Below, one piece after another: positions 37,582 to 44,860 of a stretch of 64,000 bases of DNA. The DNA is from a virus, in the IMG/VR virus record IMGVR_UViG_3300028559_000026, positions 12,488 to 76,487 of that record; one strand, 5' to 3'. The position numbers and the translations under genes are program-made. Under the pieces are notes generated by a model. That model searched no databases. It was not told the origin of the DNA and saw nothing but the letters and a program-made list of their open reading frames with translations. Each line of letters opens with the position of its first letter. Positions within the stretch are counted from its first letter, which is position 1.

Positions 37582-38559
37582 TTACTTGCCTACGAGACTA
37601 TCACCCGCAACATAGACAGAATCAGACGCCTGCTCATTAGAATCTTTATATTTACCATGTTTAGCTATGACCATTGCCTGTCTAGCGGATTCCAAGGAAT
37701 TTCCAATACCTGCGGACATGGTAATTTTGTACGAACCACCTACTGCGGGTAATTCTTTCTCACCCTCAATTAGCTGGCGTAGAAACAGAAAAGCATCCTC
37801 TTTGGAGTCCATAAAAAGCACAAAGCAATCGCCACCATCCCGAAAACTATCACCATGAGCTAACTTAGCTACCAAGCCACCAAACGCCACAATTGCTTCA
37901 TCAGCCTCTTTCCAGCCAACTTCGTTAGCCTTATGGAAATCATTAAGGTCCAGGCTGATAACCACGTTGGTTGGCTTAGAGCGCTCTAGTGCCAGAAGGT
38001 TTCCAAAGGAAGGTATCATCATATCTCTAGTCAAGTCATCATCCTTTGGTTCTGGGGCTTTCTCTTCAGCTTTATGTAGTGCATCGGGTGGGCGATGGTA
38101 TCTAAGTGTAGCCACACCTTTATGCACATTACTCAGAATAGTCGATGCTTCTGCTGGTGAAAGGGCATGACCATTTAGAATCAACACATCGCCTTGTGAT
38201 TCAAGAATTTGTGGTTGTGACATGCCGACCTTCATATACTCAAATACAGAAGGTATTTCATTGGCCACATCTTTTGGCATTTCCTCTAGCTTCGCTTCTG
38301 GGATTTCTGAATCATCCTTGTCTTGCATGTATGAATCCCACGGACGTACCAAGATATACCTGGAATTCATCTGGTGAAGCAATGCGTTGCGGGCAGTTTC
38401 ATTAAATGGACCATCTGGCATAGCCTGTCTAAGTCTATGACCATGATAGTCCTCAATCACTTTGGTCTTGCCATCACCCACCACCACCCGGCCCATACGG
38501 TTTTTAAGTAGTTGGCTGCCAGAAGTCTTTAGTCTGAAAAAGCTGTAAATTCCATTCAT
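37582..38559 (-). CDS. Protein with C-terminal GGDEF-like domain
   Basis: DDLTR, SLDLNDFHKANE.GWKEADEAI, FRDGGDCF, ITMSAGIG, AMVIAKHGK. Confidence 0.78.
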   Translation of the reverse strand: MNGIYSFFRLKTSGSQLLKNRMGRVVVGDGKTKVIEDYHGHRLRQAMPDGPFNETARNALLHQMNSRYILVRPWDSYMQDKDDSEIPEAKLEEMPKDVANEIPSVFEYMKVGMSQPQILESQGDVLILNGHALSPAEASTILSNVHKGVATLRYHRPPDALHKAEEKAPEPKDDDLTRDMMIPSFGNLLALERSKPTNVVISLDLNDFHKANEVGWKEADEAIVAFGGLVAKLAHGDSFRDGGDCFVLFMDSKEDAFLFLRQLIEGEKELPAVGGSYKITMSAGIGNSLESARQAMVIAKHGKYKDSNEQASDSVYVAGDSLVGK

Positions 38560-40574
38560 TATTTGCGCTCCGGCAATGCTGCTGTAAATACCTGTTTACG
38601 TGTCGGTTGTCCATGTCCGCGAATTGCACCTTGCACACTACGCAGTCTGTGTCCCGCTTCTGCAGCCAAATCGGCATCTACACCATTCTTGATGAGGCTG
38701 GCTTCTAGGTGTTTACTGTCTAGCTTGTTAGCCCACTCTATGGCTGCTGGGTGTATTGGGTTTGGTCCAGTATCCACGTTACCCTTGTCGCTTAATTCCC
38801 AATAATGCGGTAGCGACCTAGAGCTGTTTTCAAATAGCATCTCATTATCTATTAGATGTAGTCCATTTTTAGAAAACAGGTAATTATTGGCATGGCGGTC
38901 ATGTGACCCCATCACTGCATCCATAATCCCTAACTTATCCAAATCACCATTACCGGTAAGATTAGAAATTATATTTTTTTGATGCGAAGAGTCGCGAAGT
39001 TTTGAATAATCAGGCCAATGCACATCAGCATGCTCTGCACCATCCACAGCGTTCTGAATAGTGAATCTGTTGTTACCATATATCGACGTAGTGGGATGTG
39101 AAAAAGCTGCTGTGGTTGGTACGTATTGGCCTAGACCAAAGAAGTCTCTAGCCATGTTATGAAAAACAGCCTCGTGTCCATTGCCAGACTCATCATGCTT
39201 CATATACGCCAAACCACCTTTAGGTGAACGGACCCATCCACTTTGTTCTTCATTGATACCAGCCAAAAAGTGTGATGGTTCAGAAGCACGCCAAGTAGCT
39301 GTATCAGCACCATGAATCAAAGCTCTTTGCTCTGGTGATGTATTAAGATGTGCTATGCCGTGCTTATCTGCATCCATCTTAGGTTTGAAAGAATTATTCA
39401 TCCAGACCTCATGGGCATATGCAACATTTTTGAAATGGGTACCCTCTTTGTTCTTAGGCAGCTTGACTACAGTATTTGGCTCCTTGCTTGGAATAGCTAG
39501 GTAATGTGTCTTATTATCCTTGACAATGGTGTATTGCTCGTCTTTTGAGTGTGCAATGCCGGGATGGACGGGCTCACCACGAAAATATATAACCTTAGCT
39601 GCGGGCTTGGCTTGATTATCCATATCATTTTTAAGTAGCATTACCACCTGTTCCATCTTGAACAGAGCCATACTGTCAGTCGATGCAACAATGACTGGTA
39701 CACAGTACAGATGGTAGGCGAGTAGTGATGCGACCAACCCACATTGCTGCCGGACCTCTTCCAGAATTTGAATGAATTTGCTAGACTGTGTACCAACATC
39801 AGCCTTTTCAAGAGTGTTGATGCCATACTTGTCAACAATATGTGCTATCTGGCCCATTACATTGCCATGCAAAGCAGAACCGGATAGCTGTGCATCGTAC
39901 AATGGCCGAATTAGCCTGTCGAGAATGACTGCGGGAAATAGAGCCTGTTCTGGGTCATCCGTTAGCGCTGGATACTTGTTAACCACAAAGTGATATGCCG
40001 GGTGGTCTTCCATCGACATATCATTAGTGCGAGTAGCTTTGTCATCCAGCTCTTGGATAGAATCATAAACAGGCATATTCCCGACACCCAGCATACATAA
40101 TGCCAAGAGTGGGATATTAGGCCATTCCAGTCCGTCTTCCCTAGCTGTCTGGGATAGTTCTGTTAGCTCATTTTGCTTTTGGTCGATTGTTTTGAGCTTG
40201 GCGACATCTGGAATGTGTTTTTCATTTCTCGAAAAAACGGTGTTAGCCTTGTAGTAAGCTCTATTCCATTCTGGAAGTTCACCACCATTAGCACCTTTGA
40301 CAAATACGTCAATGTTGATGGGTTGTGCTAGATCAGTGCCAGTAATAGCATCCATCAAATGACCATAGTTTTTAACCTCTGGTATTGAATTGAAATTTGG
40401 CATAGCGGCAGCTACAAAAGCAGCTTGACGGATAAGATACGGCGAAGACCTACCAAGAGACAGGGCATGGTTAAGTGGAAGCCATTGGGCCATAAATCGA
40501 CCAAACTGCTTCAAATCAGCGCTGTTCAATATAGTGTTGTAGGTATCTACATCGTCGATATTGTAATCATACAT
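38559..40574 (-). CDS. Polyprotein: degenerate HhH-like domain plus HipA/PI-kinase-like domain
   Basis: DAVMGSHDRHANNYLF...LIDNE kinase; N-terminus aligns by eye to the spliced C-terminal domain of the upstream protease gene. Confidence 0.8.
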   Translation of the reverse strand: MYDYNIDDVDTYNTILNSADLKQFGRFMAQWLPLNHALSLGRSSPYLIRQAAFVAAAMPNFNSIPEVKNYGHLMDAITGTDLAQPINIDVFVKGANGGELPEWNRAYYKANTVFSRNEKHIPDVAKLKTIDQKQNELTELSQTAREDGLEWPNIPLLALCMLGVGNMPVYDSIQELDDKATRTNDMSMEDHPAYHFVVNKYPALTDDPEQALFPAVILDRLIRPLYDAQLSGSALHGNVMGQIAHIVDKYGINTLEKADVGTQSSKFIQILEEVRQQCGLVASLLAYHLYCVPVIVASTDSMALFKMEQVVMLLKNDMDNQAKPAAKVIYFRGEPVHPGIAHSKDEQYTIVKDNKTHYLAIPSKEPNTVVKLPKNKEGTHFKNVAYAHEVWMNNSFKPKMDADKHGIAHLNTSPEQRALIHGADTATWRASEPSHFLAGINEEQSGWVRSPKGGLAYMKHDESGNGHEAVFHNMARDFFGLGQYVPTTAAFSHPTTSIYGNNRFTIQNAVDGAEHADVHWPDYSKLRDSSHQKNIISNLTGNGDLDKLGIMDAVMGSHDRHANNYLFSKNGLHLIDNEMLFENSSRSLPHYWELSDKGNVDTGPNPIHPAAIEWANKLDSKHLEASLIKNGVDADLAAEAGHRLRSVQGAIRGHGQPTRKQVFTAALPERK

Positions 40575-43500
40575 TACATACTCCCGCGACCTTCTCTAAT
40601 CCTGGCTTGCTCTAGTAGCTTAGGAATAGCGTAGCGATAATAAAGAGTCAGGGCTGGCATCTCACCATATTGTCTAACCCAATCGGCATGCTGTTTAGCA
40701 GTCTGTGCAGGCACTGTGGTATCAATCTCACTCTTCTTTACATTCAGAAAAGGATTGACAGCTTCCCAATACGGTGTGTGGTCTGTATCGGCATTCATAC
40801 CAAAGGTTTTCATTCCTCTGGCTTCCTCATGTGGAACAATACTCATCCAGTGTTTCCAGAATGCTGGAAATACCGCAGATTCATCGTTGTGAAATAAACC
40901 TGCGTACTTGGGATGATTGCGCATATGCTTAACAGCGTCATGGTGTTTGGCGTAATACCTGTCAATGCCGTTCATAACTTCGGAGTTATTGGGCTCCCAC
41001 AAAACACTCTTTAGATGCTCAATAGTATTAGCATCAGCACCTTTCTCTAGGCCGAATAGATGACGGACAAAATGCGTATCGGGCACAACTGAGTTAGCAC
41101 CACCAAGCATGCCATACATATATCTAGCGGTCTTAGGAGCTAATCCAGGCACATCTGGACCGTTATAGGGGCCGATATCTGGCTTGCCTGCAGAAATAGC
41201 CCTATCACGCTTAGCCTTATGCTTCTGGCTATTCTCTTTATGCAGCATCAGCTCTTGGATAGCTGAGCGGGTATCGTCCTTGTGGCGGTTTACTAGGTCT
41301 ACAAGCGATTGGTGTAGGCCATGGTATTGGGCCATGTTTTTCAGCTTGTTATTAGCAAGCATAAAACTCTGTACTTGTCCAGCGGTGCGACCAACTTTAC
41401 CAGTAGTGGCTGAAACATAAGGCTTGGTACTGCTCTGATATTGGCCGTTAACCAATTTACCAATACGCACGGATGGACCAAGGTTTTCAAAATAAGATCT
41501 TCCAGTCACTGGCAGGGTATCGGGCTTGTCACGGCTAAGCCAATCTGGTCCCACTTCACCTTCAAACTTAGGGCTGGTGGCGTCGATACCCTTATCCTTC
41601 ATGGAATCAACTAGATGGCTATTGCTAGTGATAATGCCGTTAGGCAGTAGGAAGTTGTGCTTTACGTGGGCAACTTCAAGATCGTACATTTGTCGTTGGC
41701 CCACGGGACGCCATCGTACAACGCCCCGACACACCAAATTCCTGGTGTTGGAGATTGGAGAATCCGAGTAAGCCAGATCATGGCACCTTCCTTCATTTTC
41801 TTGGTTCTGCTTGAGAAATTCTCCATCGAGAGACGGATTAGAGTGATATCGCCCCTCCGTAAAGCCTCTTGATTTAGAAGCATGTCCCGGTGCTGGCGAT
41901 ATTGCAGATTTTTCACAGCCGATTCTTTTTCCGAACCTGAAAAAAAATGCCAAAATCCGTCCACTTCTATCCATATGTTTTCGTGGACTAAATCCACCTG
42001 TTTGACAATATCTCCACATTGAATCAGTCCCGATGTCCAACCCAGTTGCCCTTTTAACTCCTCTTCGATATAGGAATGAGAAGAAGCTGAAGTTTGACCA
42101 GCGGCGATAAACTTTCTTGCAATATTCCCGAATTCCTCTGGATGGGTTTCGCGCCATTCCTGGCCCAGAATCGACAATTGGGTATAGTTGTCCCGAAACT
42201 CCTCTGGATGTTCCAGTCTCCACTTCTTGGCCGCCGCTGTTAATTTCATGGCATGCCATTGGACCATGGCTGGATGCCTCTTTTGCCATTTCAGCATTGC
42301 TTGACTGGCCTTCTTTTGGCGCTCCAGAAACTCGTCTCTCTTTTCCACTTCCCATTTGCGAATCCCCACCATCATCAATTCGGGATTCTGTTCTTTCCAT
42401 ATTTTCTGTGCAGCATGGGCTTGTTGAAGTAATGCCTTGGATTTCTCGGGATTCTGAACATGCCATTGCTTTGCCGATTCTACACGGGCTGTGGCGCGTA
42501 TATCCTTGCATGCCTGACACTCTTTCCGATGCGCCTTGAACAGCACTTCTGTCCGAAATGTTTGACCACAACGGCTGTCCCAGCCCGTCGTCCTTGGTTT
42601 TTGTGGCACTAAAAATCTCCAATCCAGAAGCAATTATTTGGGAAATCGGCACCATTCCTTGGGTGGTCAAAAACTTGTGATTTTGAGAACAAACCACACG
42701 ATAACCATCCGAAAACTCGACTTCTATAGCTTCCATAGCGCCGTGGTTGTGGAGTGCTACTACTTCCGTAGTAATAACTTCCCCATTCTGACTTACTCCA
42801 AAAACCTTGTCCCCTGGTAGAAAATTCTTGATTTTCTTGATTGTGTTGTCGCATGTGCTTAAATTTGTGTCCTGATCGAGACAAAACATGATTTCCTGCA
42901 TCGGAACTGGCGTGTTTCCAGTTACGCATACATGACCACTTCTTCTCATAAAGAAAAAGGTGTTAGGCACTACTGGACACCACATACCGACCTTACCTAC
43001 ATATCGACGGATATGTCTCTTGTCTAGCTTAGCGTGCTTCTGTCGTAGCTTAGTAACCCAAAACTGAGTACCATCATGTGTTATCGAGGATGCGTGACCC
43101 AATATAGTGAGAAAAGCCTGCTCGGCATCAGCGCGTTCTTTGCTCTTGGTCACCATGGTTTTGGTATTATACTTACGGGTATAGGCTGCCCACTCCCCAT
43201 CTTTATCAACCACTGCCATATGTTGATACAGACTCGATATATGCGATACGTCTGGGGTAAAGCCATTATCGTCCAGTCGGGATTTGGCAGTGCGATGAAT
43301 TAGGTCTGATGGATTAATAGTTACAGAGGTTTTCTCCTGTACATTATTCCGACCAGACTTAACCAACCAGCGATGGTCAGGCGTAGTGATGGCATGAAAC
43401 GACCTTGACTTAAGCTCGACCAGAGGGCCTTCATAATCCGGGAAGAATCGCAGATCAGTGGGCTTTTGCCATTCCGCCATGCCAGTCTTGGGATTCTTGG

Positions 43501-44860
43501 TTAAAATCCAATCATCCATAGTTAGATCGAAACCCTTGACCCACCCTCGTTTCGTCAGTGCTTCCGTCTCGGCATCCAGGCAGTTAGGGCTAAGTTGTGA
43601 AAACAAAGTACCGTGCATAACCACTTCTGGCGGCAACTGTCCAGCTTTTAGCAATCCATTGACCTTGGACCAATTGTCCATGGCCTTGTCGTGGAAAGCT
43701 GACACCTTGGGATCATTCATAATTTTATCGAACGATTCCTTACCCCTTGCATCAGGATCACGCGAAGGGATGTACATAGGGAAAGAGCCTTGTGGCGTGT
43801 GTAGTACACCAGTGCCCTCATCAAAGAAACTCTTAGAGAGGTGCTGATTGGGCGCTACCTCCTTGCCACGAATGGTTAAATTAGTGCTTGGAGTGGCTGC
43901 AGGCGCTTCTGTGGGCCCTGTTTCCTGTGCTGGTGGTGGAGTGACCACAGCTGGCGGCTTCTTGGCCTTGGGCTTCTTTGCGGGCTCAGCTTTCGCTAGT
44001 GACTTTTTGACCTGATAGTCCTCAGCTAGATCGGCGAAGCGATCCAGAAACGAGTCGTCAGCTTCTGGGAGTCGGGACTTGAGAAGTTCACGAAATTCAG
44101 CTTTTACAAACGGTTTGGAGTAATCCCTAATGGTTGCCAGAACCACACCTTTCATACGCTTCATTACATCCTCCCTTACCAATGGGGATGACGCAGGAGC
44201 GCTCCCGTTTCCAGCAGTCAAAGTCTTAGATAGCACAATTGGATCAAAAGCAACTGTTACCGCACCAAAGGTTTTGATAATATCGCCATTTTCGTTTCTG
44301 GCTAAAATCCCCTCAATTAGAGAGGATGATGCGTCTTTCTTTTTATCTGATTGCGGATCGAAGACTACACCAGATACACATGACTTATTACATGGCTTAA
44401 CAGTACAGGCTACTTTGCGGGCGATGGATCGCTCTAGGCGGTTGCCATTCTTCTTAAGAGTAGAGCCCTCGATACTATAACGGCACAGTATTTTCTCATT
44501 GTTCTTGACGTGATCACGGATTTGTGCTGCTAGTGCGATGGCTCCTGGATGGCCTGAGCCATCATACAGGCGTGACTTAATGTAGATGTATGGCAACTTA
44601 ACCATATTCCAGTAGTTACGCTGTCTCTGGTCCGAGGCGTCTTCCTCTTTGAAAATCTTTTTGGCATAAATGATATGGCCTACATTGTCGTTTGCTGACG
44701 CACCTTTAGCATCCTCGCCTCGGTGTTCCCAATTCAGTAGACCATCGCCATTTTCTAAAGATGAAATATCGCATCCTTCAACATCTAGGATTTCACCACT
44801 AGAGTCAATCGCTTCAGACGCTGCAATACCATCAATTATCATTCCCGTTCCCGTCGTCAT
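40574..44860 (-). CDS. Prohead protease fused to HhH DNA-glycosylase-like domain, with two inteins
   Basis: IDGIAASEAIDSSGEIL, LNWEH, YSIEGS, VACTVKPCN protease motifs; GLAPKTARY...VVPDTH HhH-like motif; two Hint domains. Confidence 0.88.
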   Translation of the reverse strand: MTTGTGMIIDGIAASEAIDSSGEILDVEGCDISSLENGDGLLNWEHRGEDAKGASANDNVGHIIYAKKIFKEEDASDQRQRNYWNMVKLPYIYIKSRLYDGSGHPGAIALAAQIRDHVKNNEKILCRYSIEGSTLKKNGNRLERSIARKVACTVKPCNKSCVSGVVFDPQSDKKKDASSSLIEGILARNENGDIIKTFGAVTVAFDPIVLSKTLTAGNGSAPASSPLVREDVMKRMKGVVLATIRDYSKPFVKAEFRELLKSRLPEADDSFLDRFADLAEDYQVKKSLAKAEPAKKPKAKKPPAVVTPPPAQETGPTEAPAATPSTNLTIRGKEVAPNQHLSKSFFDEGTGVLHTPQGSFPMYIPSRDPDARGKESFDKIMNDPKVSAFHDKAMDNWSKVNGLLKAGQLPPEVVMHGTLFSQLSPNCLDAETEALTKRGWVKGFDLTMDDWILTKNPKTGMAEWQKPTDLRFFPDYEGPLVELKSRSFHAITTPDHRWLVKSGRNNVQEKTSVTINPSDLIHRTAKSRLDDNGFTPDVSHISSLYQHMAVVDKDGEWAAYTRKYNTKTMVTKSKERADAEQAFLTILGHASSITHDGTQFWVTKLRQKHAKLDKRHIRRYVGKVGMWCPVVPNTFFFMRRSGHVCVTGNTPVPMQEIMFCLDQDTNLSTCDNTIKKIKNFLPGDKVFGVSQNGEVITTEVVALHNHGAMEAIEVEFSDGYRVVCSQNHKFLTTQGMVPISQIIASGLEIFSATKTKDDGLGQPLWSNISDRSAVQGASERVSGMQGYTRHSPCRIGKAMACSESREIQGITSTSPCCTENMERTESRIDDGGDSQMGSGKERRVSGAPKEGQSSNAEMAKEASSHGPMACHEINSGGQEVETGTSRGVSGQLYPIVDSGPGMARNPSRGIREYCKKVYRRWSNFSFFSFLYRRGVKRATGLDIGTDSMWRYCQTGGFSPRKHMDRSGRILAFFFRFGKRIGCEKSAISPAPGHASKSRGFTEGRYHSNPSLDGEFLKQNQENEGRCHDLAYSDSPISNTRNLVCRGVVRWRPVGQRQMYDLEVAHVKHNFLLPNGIITSNSHLVDSMKDKGIDATSPKFEGEVGPDWLSRDKPDTLPVTGRSYFENLGPSVRIGKLVNGQYQSSTKPYVSATTGKVGRTAGQVQSFMLANNKLKNMAQYHGLHQSLVDLVNRHKDDTRSAIQELMLHKENSQKHKAKRDRAISAGKPDIGPYNGPDVPGLAPKTARYMYGMLGGANSVVPDTHFVRHLFGLEKGADANTIEHLKSVLWEPNNSEVMNGIDRYYAKHHDAVKHMRNHPKYAGLFHNDESAVFPAFWKHWMSIVPHEEARGMKTFGMNADTDHTPYWEAVNPFLNVKKSEIDTTVPAQTAKQHADWVRQYGEMPALTLYYRYAIPKLLEQARIREGRGSM
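41621..42883 (-). mobile_element. Intein 2 (421 aa) carrying an out-of-frame endonuclease gene
   Basis: F|CLDQDTNL, CSQNHKFLT block B, MYDLEV..KHNFLLPNGIITSN|S. Confidence 0.9.
41662..42609 (-). CDS. Vsr/DUF559-like PD-(D/E)xK endonuclease nested in intein 2 in another frame
   Basis: GGAG (42620-42617)-N7-GTG(42609); W..[EQ][HN]PE helical repeats; SYIEEEL, QVDL, IEVDGFWH, RDMLLN, LIRL. Confidence 0.8.
   Translation of the reverse strand: MPQKPRTTGWDSRCGQTFRTEVLFKAHRKECQACKDIRATARVESAKQWHVQNPEKSKALLQQAHAAQKIWKEQNPELMMVGIRKWEVEKRDEFLERQKKASQAMLKWQKRHPAMVQWHAMKLTAAAKKWRLEHPEEFRDNYTQLSILGQEWRETHPEEFGNIARKFIAAGQTSASSHSYIEEELKGQLGWTSGLIQCGDIVKQVDLVHENIWIEVDGFWHFFSGSEKESAVKNLQYRQHRDMLLNQEALRRGDITLIRLSMENFSSRTKKMKEGAMIWLTRILQSPTPGIWCVGALYDGVPWANDKCTILKLPT
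42914..43582 (-). mobile_element. Intein 1 (223 aa) with degenerate LAGLIDADG remnant
   Basis: N|CLDAETEALTKRGW, TPDHRW block B, MWCPVVPNTFF...VTGN|T. Confidence 0.9.

What the first reader, a model, noticed from the sequence alone, without database searches (positions are those of the whole stretch)
41621..42883. Intein whose endonuclease is a separate overlapping gene in another reading frame
Seen: intein 2 has intact splicing blocks at both ends, but its ~315-residue middle reads as S/G/R-rich nonsense. The +1 frame over the same DNA (41662-42609) encodes a coherent protein with W..[EQ][HN]PE helical repeats and a Vsr/DUF559-like nuclease (IEVDGFWH). It has its own GGAG-N7-GTG start just after block B and stops just inside block F. 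Both frames are stop-free for ~950 nt. Established: intein homing endonucleases are normally in-frame domains, mostly LAGLIDADG or HNH. Inference: a dual-coding selfish element in which the nuclease is translated independently of splicing while the intein frame is kept open as a disposable linker so the host polyprotein survives. I do not know a description of this architecture, but cannot check the literature here.
Basis: partly seen in the sequence, partly recalled or inferred. Interest (0 to 1): 0.93.

Follow-up and report, generated by a model that had tools for sequence, protein, structure and literature searches.

The report
Intein with out-of-frame homing endonuclease gene
A phage head-region gene carries a self-splicing protein insert (an intein) whose DNA-cutting "homing" enzyme is a separate gene written one base out of step over the same DNA; the layout is real and kept by selection, but this kind of layout has already been described.

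Summary
Intein 2 (window 41621-42883, minus strand, 421 aa) has intact, confidently folded splicing ends. Its 282-residue middle is unconserved and predicted disordered. The +1 frame of the same DNA (42609-41662) encodes a 315-aa protein: a zinc-finger-like module, a helical repeat array and a Vsr-like nuclease domain (Vsr Z 10.7; I-Bth0305I Z 8.3). It has its own GGAG-N7-GTG start.

The layout recurs in 20 related loci, in three different host genes. Stop-creating codon pairs are absent from the intein frame (0 of 1586) but common elsewhere (1093 of 4263). A split-intein relative (L004) has 30 stops in that frame and serves as a natural control. Substitution patterns show purifying selection on the nuclease frame. 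This switches to the intein frame over the last ~22 codons (block F).

Contigs from four other metagenome runs match the window with no indels. Host-gene alleles exist with no intein, with either intein, or with both.

Translation, splicing and cleavage are inferred, not shown. The novelty claim does not hold: out-of-frame intein endonucleases were described in 1998 and in 2025-2026 preprints. This scan has also noted the same +1 Vsr-like layout on other DNA (131 notes, at least 112 genomes).

The parts
40574..44860 (-). Host ORF (1428 aa, P0001). Function unknown. It lies downstream of the portal gene and carries two inteins.
   Evidence: Intein-free homologues L024-L027 and L030 are colinear across both sites.
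41621..42883 (-). Intein 2, contiguous, 421 aa (Cys1 to Asn421, Ser at +1)
   Evidence: Pfam Intein_splicing 36.9 bits. Boundaries fit intein-free alleles ..QELMY|(G/A)HLVD... Alignment A3.
42599..42883 (-). N-terminal splicing domain (intein residues 1-95, blocks A and B, ..SQNHKFLT..)
   Evidence: pLDDT 89-97. Foldseek matches the Npu DnaE intein 4kl5, E 5e-8. Residues H45, H47, H69, K70, F71 and L72 are invariant.
41750..42595 (-). Intein-frame linker (intein residues 97-378): stop-free, unconserved, predicted disordered
   Evidence: pLDDT 33-44 with no secondary structure. No conserved columns, and the region is absent from the mini-intein relatives. Stop avoidance is shown.
41621..41749 (-). 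C-terminal splicing domain (intein residues 379-421, blocks F and G, ..MYDLEVAH.KHNF..TSN)
   Evidence: pLDDT 85-97. DLEV, HNF and TSN are invariant. The intein frame dominates selection here.
42617..42620 (-). Shine-Dalgarno-like GGAG, 7 nt upstream of the nuclease GTG
   Evidence: A GGAG-like motif lies 5-9 nt before the ATG or GTG in all 13 contiguous relatives examined.
41662..42609 (-). Homing-endonuclease ORF in the +1 frame (315 aa plus TAA), GTG start
   Evidence: AlphaFold2 model has mean pLDDT 86.3. 280 cluster representatives match the family profile.
42508..42585 (-). Zinc-finger-like module of the nuclease (GW..RCG...H...C..C, residues 9-34)
   Evidence: Conserved in A1 and A2 and repeated 1-3 times in relatives. 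Weak Pfam Phage_zn_bind_3 hit, E 0.02. Model shows a beta-hairpin plus helix, pLDDT about 95.
42091..42516 (-). Helical repeat array of the nuclease (residues 32-173, five W..[NH]P[EA] repeats). Presumed DNA-binding region.
   Evidence: Seven helices of about 20 residues. Repeats located. No DNA-level tandem repeat. The DNA-binding role is inferred.
41677..42087 (-). Vsr-like (EDxHD-type) nuclease domain (residues 175-311)
   Evidence: VIA-align: Vsr 1cw0_A Z 10.7 (rmsd 3.0, 120 aligned); I-Bth0305I 3r3p_B Z 8.3; 3hrl Z 7.5. D206, E215, D217 and H221 are invariant and D242 is at least 90% conserved.

Best explanation
Intein 2 is a contiguous, splicing-competent intein of the mini-intein (HINT) type. 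Its homing endonuclease is not an in-frame domain. It is a separate gene overprinted in the +1 frame across the loop where intein endonucleases normally sit. The host mRNA is read in two ways. (1) Ribosomes translating the host ORF pass through about 280 codons of stop-free, disordered 'linker'. The N- and C-terminal splicing halves then fold together, excise the whole insert and ligate the exteins. (2) Ribosomes that initiate internally at GGAG-N7-GTG (42609) make a 315-aa protein: a zinc-finger-like module, a helical repeat array and a Vsr-like nuclease. This protein is presumed to cut intein-less alleles near the ..QELMY|GHLVD.. junction, so that repair copies the intein and nuclease in as one unit. 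Selection therefore acts on the nuclease frame for protein sequence. On the intein frame it acts only for the absence of stops, except over the last ~22 aligned codons, where block F dominates, and over the last ~50 codons, where the nuclease tail and the C-terminal splicing domain are both functional. Shown here: anatomy, dual-frame selection, folds, recurrence and the sporadic distribution of alleles. Inferred: internal initiation, splicing, DNA cleavage and homing.
For: Twenty loci share the layout. The intein frame is open across the whole nuclease ORF and belongs to ORFs of 757-1830 aa, while the third frame is closed. Stop avoidance is complete: 0 of 1586 T-ending codons precede AA/AG/GA codons, against 1093 of 4263 elsewhere, and 0 of 2000 synonymous shuffles per locus were stop-free. 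The split relative L004 has 30 stops against 28.5 expected. Codon position 3 of the nuclease frame is the most variable (identity 0.41, against 0.54 and 0.57). Amino-acid identity is 0.40 in the nuclease frame and 0.26 in the intein frame, reversing to 0.49 and 0.67 over block F. An SD-like motif plus a start codon is conserved. The nuclease model has pLDDT 86 with a Vsr or I-Bth0305I fold. The intein-frame model has folded ends that match the Npu DnaE intein and a disordered middle. The nuclease and the N-terminal splicing domain co-diverge, Spearman 0.66, 0 of 5000 permutations. Host-gene alleles exist with no intein, intein 1 only, intein 2 only, or both. Mini-intein relatives keep remnants of the nuclease ORF. 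Independent contigs show no indels.
Against: There is no direct evidence of translation from the GTG, of splicing or of cleavage. Pfam, PHROGs and PDB sequence searches do not recognise the nuclease; DUF559 is matched by only 2 of 24 members at E 0.03, so the family assignment rests on fold and motifs. The intein lacks the usual penultimate His (..TSN). One distant relative, P0085, has the nuclease fused in frame to the N-intein, so the out-of-frame state is not universal in the wider family. No sigma-70-like promoter lies inside the intein.
Confidence: 0.85

Rival explanations
1. Assembly or sequencing artefact: two compensating indels moved an in-frame endonuclease domain out of frame.
For: None found.
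Against: Contigs from four other runs are identical with no gaps, and one spans both frame transitions. The same +1 relation holds in 20 independently assembled loci at 26-59% protein identity. An artefact would not leave the wrong frame stop-free; shuffles never did in 2000 trials.
Confidence: 0.01
2. The intein carries a decayed in-frame endonuclease, and the +1 ORF is a chance open frame without function.
For: The in-frame middle looks like nonsense, as decayed domains can.
Against: The +1 product is conserved and matches 280 cluster representatives. It folds confidently into a Vsr-like nuclease with invariant acidic and His residues. Its third codon position is the most variable.
Confidence: 0.01
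3. The nuclease is made not by internal initiation but by +1 ribosomal frameshifting, as a fusion to the N-extein and N-intein.
For: The nuclease start lies inside a translated ORF. A distant relative, P0085, is an in-frame N-intein-nuclease fusion.
Against: The +1 frame is closed by TAA 24 nt upstream of the GTG, which leaves a very short window for a shift. An SD-like motif at proper spacing from an ATG or GTG is conserved in all contiguous relatives. In split relatives the gene is free-standing with its own ATG.
Confidence: 0.04
4. The nuclease no longer drives homing. It has been domesticated for a phage function such as exclusion of competitors or DNA processing, or the intein-nuclease unit is now fixed and inherited vertically.
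For: Nuclease clades follow the insertion site and host gene. Cleavage specificity is unknown.
Against: Host-gene alleles occur with and without the intein at the same site. The intein occupies three different host genes. Deletion derivatives fit a gain, decay and loss cycle.
Confidence: 0.08

Closest known systems
Non-canonical actinobacteriophage inteins (Gosselin, Arsenault, Gogarten; bioRxiv 10.1101/2025.01.02.630785)
   Same: The intein is contiguous and the homing endonuclease is encoded in a separate frame over the endonuclease-insertion region. The in-frame translation of that region has no recognisable structure. A Vsr-like nuclease with an extra helical stretch is among the types reported.
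   Different: There the Vsr-like gene is on the antisense strand, and the only same-strand out-of-frame case is endonuclease VII-like in frame 3. Here the Vsr-like gene is on the same strand in the +1 frame, in uncultured lake phages, in DnaE and two unknown host genes.
Cyanobacterial dnaX intein with an out-of-frame endonuclease (Gorbalenya 1998, NAR 26:1741; Phillips, DeSimone, Gogarten, bioRxiv 10.64898/2026.09.14.751524)
   Same: Same-strand overlapping ORF with a Shine-Dalgarno-like motif. The in-frame middle is disordered. Selection is frame-dependent, with purifying selection in the endonuclease frame. Mini-intein alleles coexist.
   Different: There the nuclease is LAGLIDADG in a +2 ORF and the host is cellular. 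Here it is a Vsr-like nuclease in +1 and the hosts are phages.
Fractured genes: split inteins flanking a free-standing Vsr-like endonuclease gene (Dassa et al. 2009, PMC2677866)
   Same: Same nuclease type and same kind of hosts, including DnaE. The 3' end of the nuclease gene overlaps the start of the C-intein part. Relative L004 has exactly this arrangement.
   Different: In fractured genes the intein frame is interrupted and the two halves splice in trans. In the window the intein frame stays open through the whole nuclease gene, so splicing is in cis. Their model has no out-of-frame contiguous state.
I-Bth0305I, prototype of the EDxHD homing endonucleases (Taylor et al. 2011, PMC3239194; PDB 3r3p)
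   Same: The catalytic domain has a Vsr-like fold (Z 8.3, 90 of 98 residues aligned). The architecture is bipartite, with an N-terminal DNA-binding region and a C-terminal nuclease.
   Different: I-Bth0305I is encoded in a group I intron and has NUMOD/HTH motifs. Here the gene lies in an intein and the N-terminal region is a zinc-finger-like module plus W..NPE helical repeats. No sequence-level match was found.
ShiLan 'hidden' HNH endonuclease insertions in phage methylases (Arsenault et al. 2025, PMC11855218)
   Same: An out-of-frame endonuclease ORF with a GTG start lies inside a host ORF that stays open across the insertion.
   Different: Those insertions have no intein splicing domains, so the insertion stays in the host protein, and the nuclease is HNH.

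Membership tests
Intein (HINT splicing domain) | N-terminal nucleophile (Cys, Ser or Thr at position 1) and block B (T/S)xxH | tested here: met
   Cys1. Block B is ..SQNH.., with H69 invariant in 16 relatives.
Intein (HINT splicing domain) | C-terminal Asn followed by Cys, Ser or Thr at +1, with blocks F and G | tested here: met
   ..MYDLEVAH.KHNF..GIITSN|S, with DLEV, HNF and TSN invariant. The penultimate residue is Ser, not the usual His.
Intein (HINT splicing domain) | HINT fold and a profile match | tested here: met
   Pfam Intein_splicing scores 36.9 bits against a cut-off of 35.8. Foldseek matches Npu and Ssp DnaE, RecA and DnaB mini-inteins, E 5e-8 to 1e-5, probability 1.0.
Intein (HINT splicing domain) | Insert is absent from homologous host genes and the exteins are colinear across the site | tested here: met
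   L024-L028 and L030 read ..PVP.QELMY|(G/A)HLVD.. with no insert.
Intein (HINT splicing domain) | Protein splicing activity | not testable with these tools
   Needs expression of the precursor.
Vsr-like / EDxHD homing endonucleases | Vsr-type nuclease fold | tested here: met
   1cw0_A Z 10.7 (rmsd 3.0, 120 aligned) and 3r3p_B Z 8.3, well above the unrelated rows below them. Foldseek on the whole model was not significant.
Vsr-like / EDxHD homing endonucleases | Conserved catalytic residues corresponding to Vsr Asp51, Glu at the Phe62 position, His69 and Asp97 (PMC2677866, PMC3239194) | tested here: inconclusive
   D206, E215, D217 and H221 are invariant and D242 is at least 90% conserved, in ..KQVD.. 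/ ..IEVDGFWH.. / ..RD... The one-to-one mapping onto Vsr residues is my own motif alignment, not a tool result.
Vsr-like / EDxHD homing endonucleases | Sequence-profile membership (Pfam Vsr or DUF559) | tested here: not met
   No hit for the window protein. DUF559 is matched by 2 of 24 relatives at E 0.034, below the cut-off. PDB profile and sequence searches found nothing.
Vsr-like / EDxHD homing endonucleases | Site-specific double-strand cleavage of the insert-less allele | not testable with these tools
   Needs purified protein and a substrate carrying the junction.
Non-canonical intein with the endonuclease in an overlapping alternative frame | Contiguous intein ORF with a complete endonuclease ORF in another frame over the endonuclease-insertion region | tested here: met
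Non-canonical intein with the endonuclease in an overlapping alternative frame | Purifying selection in the endonuclease frame; the intein frame is unconserved and disordered there | tested here: met
Fractured gene (split intein plus free-standing endonuclease gene) | The N-intein ORF ends in a stop and the C-intein ORF has its own start | tested here: not met
   The window ORF is uninterrupted from 44860 to 40574. The feature is met in relative L004.

The most novel reading that the evidence does not exclude
The +1-overprinted contiguous intein may be the evolutionary intermediate that gives rise to naturally split inteins. A single nonsense or frameshift mutation in the dispensable linker frame would convert a cis-splicing intein into a trans-splicing 'fractured gene'. 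The reverse path would need about 30 coordinated synonymous changes and is practically closed. The same intein-nuclease lineage is seen here in three states: contiguous (20 loci), split (L004, whose stop count has fully relaxed to the shuffle expectation) and nuclease-deleted mini-intein. The root of the tree and the direction of change are not established.
Probability: 0.4. Interest if true: 0.6.

Novelty: new member of a known kind. Interest (0 to 1): 0.45.

Why it matters
This is a clean natural case of long dual coding: about 950 nt with two open frames under different kinds of selection, one for protein sequence and one only for the absence of stops. It shows that a free-standing type of homing endonuclease can live inside an intein without breaking the host gene. 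It also links contiguous inteins to the split-intein 'fractured genes' of phages. In practice, standard gene callers and annotators report such inteins as having an odd low-complexity middle and often miss the nuclease. The intein also tolerates a loop of about 280 disordered residues, which is relevant to intein engineering. The general architecture is already in the literature, so the value lies in breadth and in the strength of the evidence rather than in a new principle.

Tried and rejected
- Megablast of the host gene and tblastn of the nuclease against the phage collection found no match.
- Pfam and PHROGs on the nuclease gave only a sub-threshold zinc-binding hit.
- PDB sequence and profile searches with the nuclease gave only chance hits.
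- Foldseek on the whole nuclease model found nothing at E <= 0.001, with Vsr at prob 0.35-0.54. VIA-align was needed.
- A search for longer, fused forms of the nuclease found none, which is weak evidence. The exhaustive search found one, P0085. Its DNA was not found in viral contigs. The metagenome scan gave only 38-58% identical relatives, of which L031 was read and has the nuclease out of frame in a split arrangement.
- No RNA holder was listed among the sequencing runs, so expression could not be examined.
- No sigma-70-like promoter was found in 41400-43100.
- The helical repeats have no DNA-level tandem repeat.
- Pfam on the host protein, its intein-free homologues and the 757-aa host gave no family. 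There were only sub-threshold PI3_PI4_kinase hits near the C-terminus of two of the longer homologues scanned.
- BLASTP did not support paralogy between the host protein and the downstream ORF 38559-40574; the best E was 0.49.
Full report
**Where the window comes from.** The window is part of a 76.5-kb IMG/VR virus record, roughly half complete. The same DNA occurs in several lake-water metagenome runs. The gene in question is the 1428-aa ORF at 40574-44860 on the minus strand (P0001). It lies downstream of a portal gene, which matches Pfam Phage_portal. Its function could not be assigned.

- P0001 contains two inteins only 10 residues apart.
It starts with Cys, ends ..TSN and is followed by Ser. 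It matches Pfam Intein_splicing above the curated cut-off.
- A second ORF runs in the +1 frame. TAA at 42636-42634 closes that frame just upstream.
- GGAG (42620-42617) is followed by 7 nt and then GTG (42609).
- The ORF ends with TAA at 41664-41662, inside block F of the intein.
- Both frames are open for 969 nt, while the third frame has 17 stops.

**It is not an artefact.** Logan contigs from four other runs match with no substitutions and no gaps. One contig spans 41466-42700 and so covers both ends of the nuclease ORF. These runs may belong to one sampling campaign. The decisive point is that the layout recurs elsewhere, as described next.

**The layout recurs.**
- The +1 product has homologues at 30-50% identity (alignment A1).
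- Scanning IMG/VR with A1 gave 22 loci.
- In 17 of them a full-length nuclease ORF (273-382 codons) is overlapped throughout by an open frame one base upstream. That frame belongs to an ORF of 757-1830 aa, while the third frame is closed.
- Two more examples sit on contigs binned as Omnitrophota and Myxococcales MAGs.
- With the window, that makes 20 loci. A few are near-duplicates (L005/L006, L012/L013, L002/L016).
- The inteins are homologous to each other (alignment A3) and occupy three host genes:
  - the window's gene (W, L002, L003, L016);
  - a 757-760-aa protein of unknown function (L005, L012);
  - DNA polymerase III alpha, at GFNK|SH (L007, L008, L011, L014, L017 and others; Pfam).

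**Selection on the two frames.**
- In this frame relation, a stop in the intein frame needs a T-ending nuclease codon followed by a codon that starts AA, AG or GA. Across 18 loci this pair occurs 0 times in 1586 opportunities. T-ending codons make up 1093 of 4263 (26%) elsewhere.
- Permuting synonymous codons within each nuclease gene gave 8-19 stops on average and never zero in 2000 trials per locus.
- A natural control exists in L004, a split-intein relative. It has 30 stops in that frame against 28.5 expected, and 30 of 90 T-ending codons at the risky positions.
- On a codon alignment guided by the nuclease protein, nuclease-frame position 3 is the most variable (identity 0.41, against 0.54 and 0.57 for positions 1 and 2). 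Amino-acid identity is 0.40 in the nuclease frame and 0.26 in the intein frame.
- Over the last 22 aligned codons the pattern flips. Position 2, which is intein position 3, becomes the most variable, and identity is 0.67 in the intein frame against 0.49 in the nuclease frame.
- So the nuclease frame is under purifying selection. The intein frame is kept merely open through the middle, and it takes over where block F begins.

**What the two products look like.**
- The +1 protein, modelled with 24 relatives, has mean pLDDT 86.3. It has three parts:
  - a small beta-hairpin-plus-helix module carrying the conserved C...H...C..C pattern;
  - seven helices of about 20 residues carrying five W..[NH]P[EA] repeats;
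  - an alpha/beta domain at residues 175-311.
- That last domain matches E. coli Vsr (1cw0_A, Z 10.7, rmsd 3.0, 120 residues), the catalytic domain of the homing endonuclease I-Bth0305I (3r3p_B, Z 8.3) and a DUF559-like protein (3hrl, Z 7.5). These stand clearly above the rows below them.
- Invariant or nearly invariant residues D206, E215, D217, H221 and D242 sit in motifs that resemble the Vsr-like active site described by Dassa et al. and Taylor et al.. The residue-by-residue mapping is my inference.
- Sequence profiles (Pfam, PHROGs, PDB) do not recognise the protein.
- The intein-frame product, modelled with 16 relatives, has two confident parts: residues 1-95 and 380-421, at pLDDT 85-97. 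Together they match mini-inteins such as Npu DnaE (E 5e-8).
- Residues 97-378 have pLDDT 33-44 and almost no secondary structure. They are S/G/R-rich and have no conserved columns. They are missing altogether from the three mini-intein relatives.

**How the nuclease is probably made.** In all 13 contiguous relatives examined, an ATG or GTG at the start of the conserved nuclease sequence is preceded at 5-9 nt by a GGAG-like motif. The +1 frame opens only 0-34 codons upstream of that start. This points to internal initiation on the host mRNA. No promoter-like site was found inside the intein. No RNA data were available, so translation remains inferred.

**Evidence that the unit is mobile.**
- Homologues of the window's host gene occur in four states:
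  - with no intein (L024-L027, L030);
  - with intein 1 only (L028, L029);
  - with intein 2 only (L002, L003, L016);
  - with both (the window).
- The empty site reads ..QELMY|(G/A)HLVD.. and the occupied site has Ser at +1.
- Pairwise identities of the non-overlapping part of the nuclease correlate with those of the N-terminal splicing domain (Spearman 0.66; 0 of 5000 permutations). Nuclease clades follow the insertion site. Intein and nuclease therefore travel together.
- Two of the mini-intein relatives in DnaE (L020 and L023) keep the start region and the tail of the nuclease ORF but lack its core. They are deletion derivatives, as expected in a gain, decay and loss cycle.
- L004 is a classic fractured DnaE gene. 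The N-intein ORF ends in a stop that overlaps the nuclease ATG. The C-intein ORF starts inside the nuclease 3' end.

**Comparison with the literature.**
- Homing endonucleases encoded in another frame or strand of a contiguous intein were proposed by Gorbalenya in 1998, as cited.
- They were described for actinobacteriophages in 2025: antisense LAGLIDADG, antisense Vsr-like, and same-strand frame-3 endonuclease VII-like.
- They were described for the cyanobacterial dnaX intein in 2026: LAGLIDADG in a +2 ORF, with frame-dependent dN/dS.
- Vsr-like homing endonucleases were first described as free-standing genes between split-intein halves, with 6-69 bp of 3' overlap (Dassa 2009).
- Their prototype, I-Bth0305I, has been characterised (Taylor 2011).
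- In the papers I read, I did not find a same-strand, +1-frame Vsr-like gene inside a contiguous intein. This case is therefore a further combination within a known kind, not a new kind.
- Earlier notes of this scan report the same layout on other DNA: 131 notes in at least 112 genomes. Those notes are unchecked AI notes. I did not rely on them, but my results agree with them.

**Family size.** A profile of the nuclease (A2) matches 280 cluster representatives among 1.84 billion proteins at E <= 0.001, and 46 at E <= 1e-30. Almost all are 120-430 aa, which is the length of a stand-alone ORF. One distant member, P0085 (779 aa), is a DnaE fragment whose N-intein runs in frame into the nuclease. 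Its DNA could not be retrieved.

**Verdict.**
- The most interesting open reading is that this contiguous overprinted state is the source of naturally split inteins. The asymmetry between losing and regaining a stop-free frame favours that direction, but the root of the tree is not established.

Noticed in passing
window 42914-43582 (-), spacer 42884-42913: A second, unrelated intein (intein 1, 223 aa, C...VTGN|T) sits only 10 residues (TPVPMQEIMF) upstream of intein 2. Host-gene alleles carry intein 1 only (L028, L029), intein 2 only (L002, L003, L016) or neither, so the two move independently.
   Followed up: partly
L014:5247, L015:5670, L017:5625: In three DnaE relatives the first intein residue is Thr (GFNK|T...). 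It is Ser in most relatives and Cys in the window. Thr is an unusual N-terminal nucleophile for an intein.
   Followed up: no
P0085 (protein only): This 779-aa DnaE fragment contains a complete mini-intein, then a second N-intein that continues IN FRAME into a distant relative of the nuclease and ends there. It may be a natural N-intein-nuclease fusion or a frameshift error. Its DNA was not found.
   Followed up: partly
L031:2198-9548: A DnaE gene broken into several ORFs by at least two split inteins, each with a free-standing Vsr-like gene that overlaps the neighbouring intein part. This is an extreme 'fractured gene'.
   Followed up: no
L020:5905-6171; L023:4770-5135: Mini-intein relatives (188-201 aa) keep a short +1 ORF with the zinc-finger start and the conserved tail of the nuclease but no nuclease core. 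These are internal deletions of the endonuclease gene.
   Followed up: partly
window 42091-42516 (-): The W..[NH]P[EA] helix repeat occurs five times in the window nuclease and its closest homologue P0004, but once or twice in most other relatives. There is no DNA-level tandem repeat, so the expansion is old.
   Followed up: partly
BLASTP gives only E 0.49 over 28 residues, so this simple test does not support the claim.
   Followed up: partly
L033, L034: The same dual-frame DnaE intein occurs on contigs binned as Omnitrophota and Myxococcales MAGs. Whether these are prophages, mis-binned phage contigs or cellular dnaE genes was not examined.
   Followed up: no
L002:3894-8939, L026:4678-8136: Longer homologues of the host protein carry a sub-threshold PI3_PI4_kinase-like stretch near the C-terminus (E 5e-5 and 1e-4, below the Pfam cut-off). 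The window's host ORF ends before that region.
   Followed up: no
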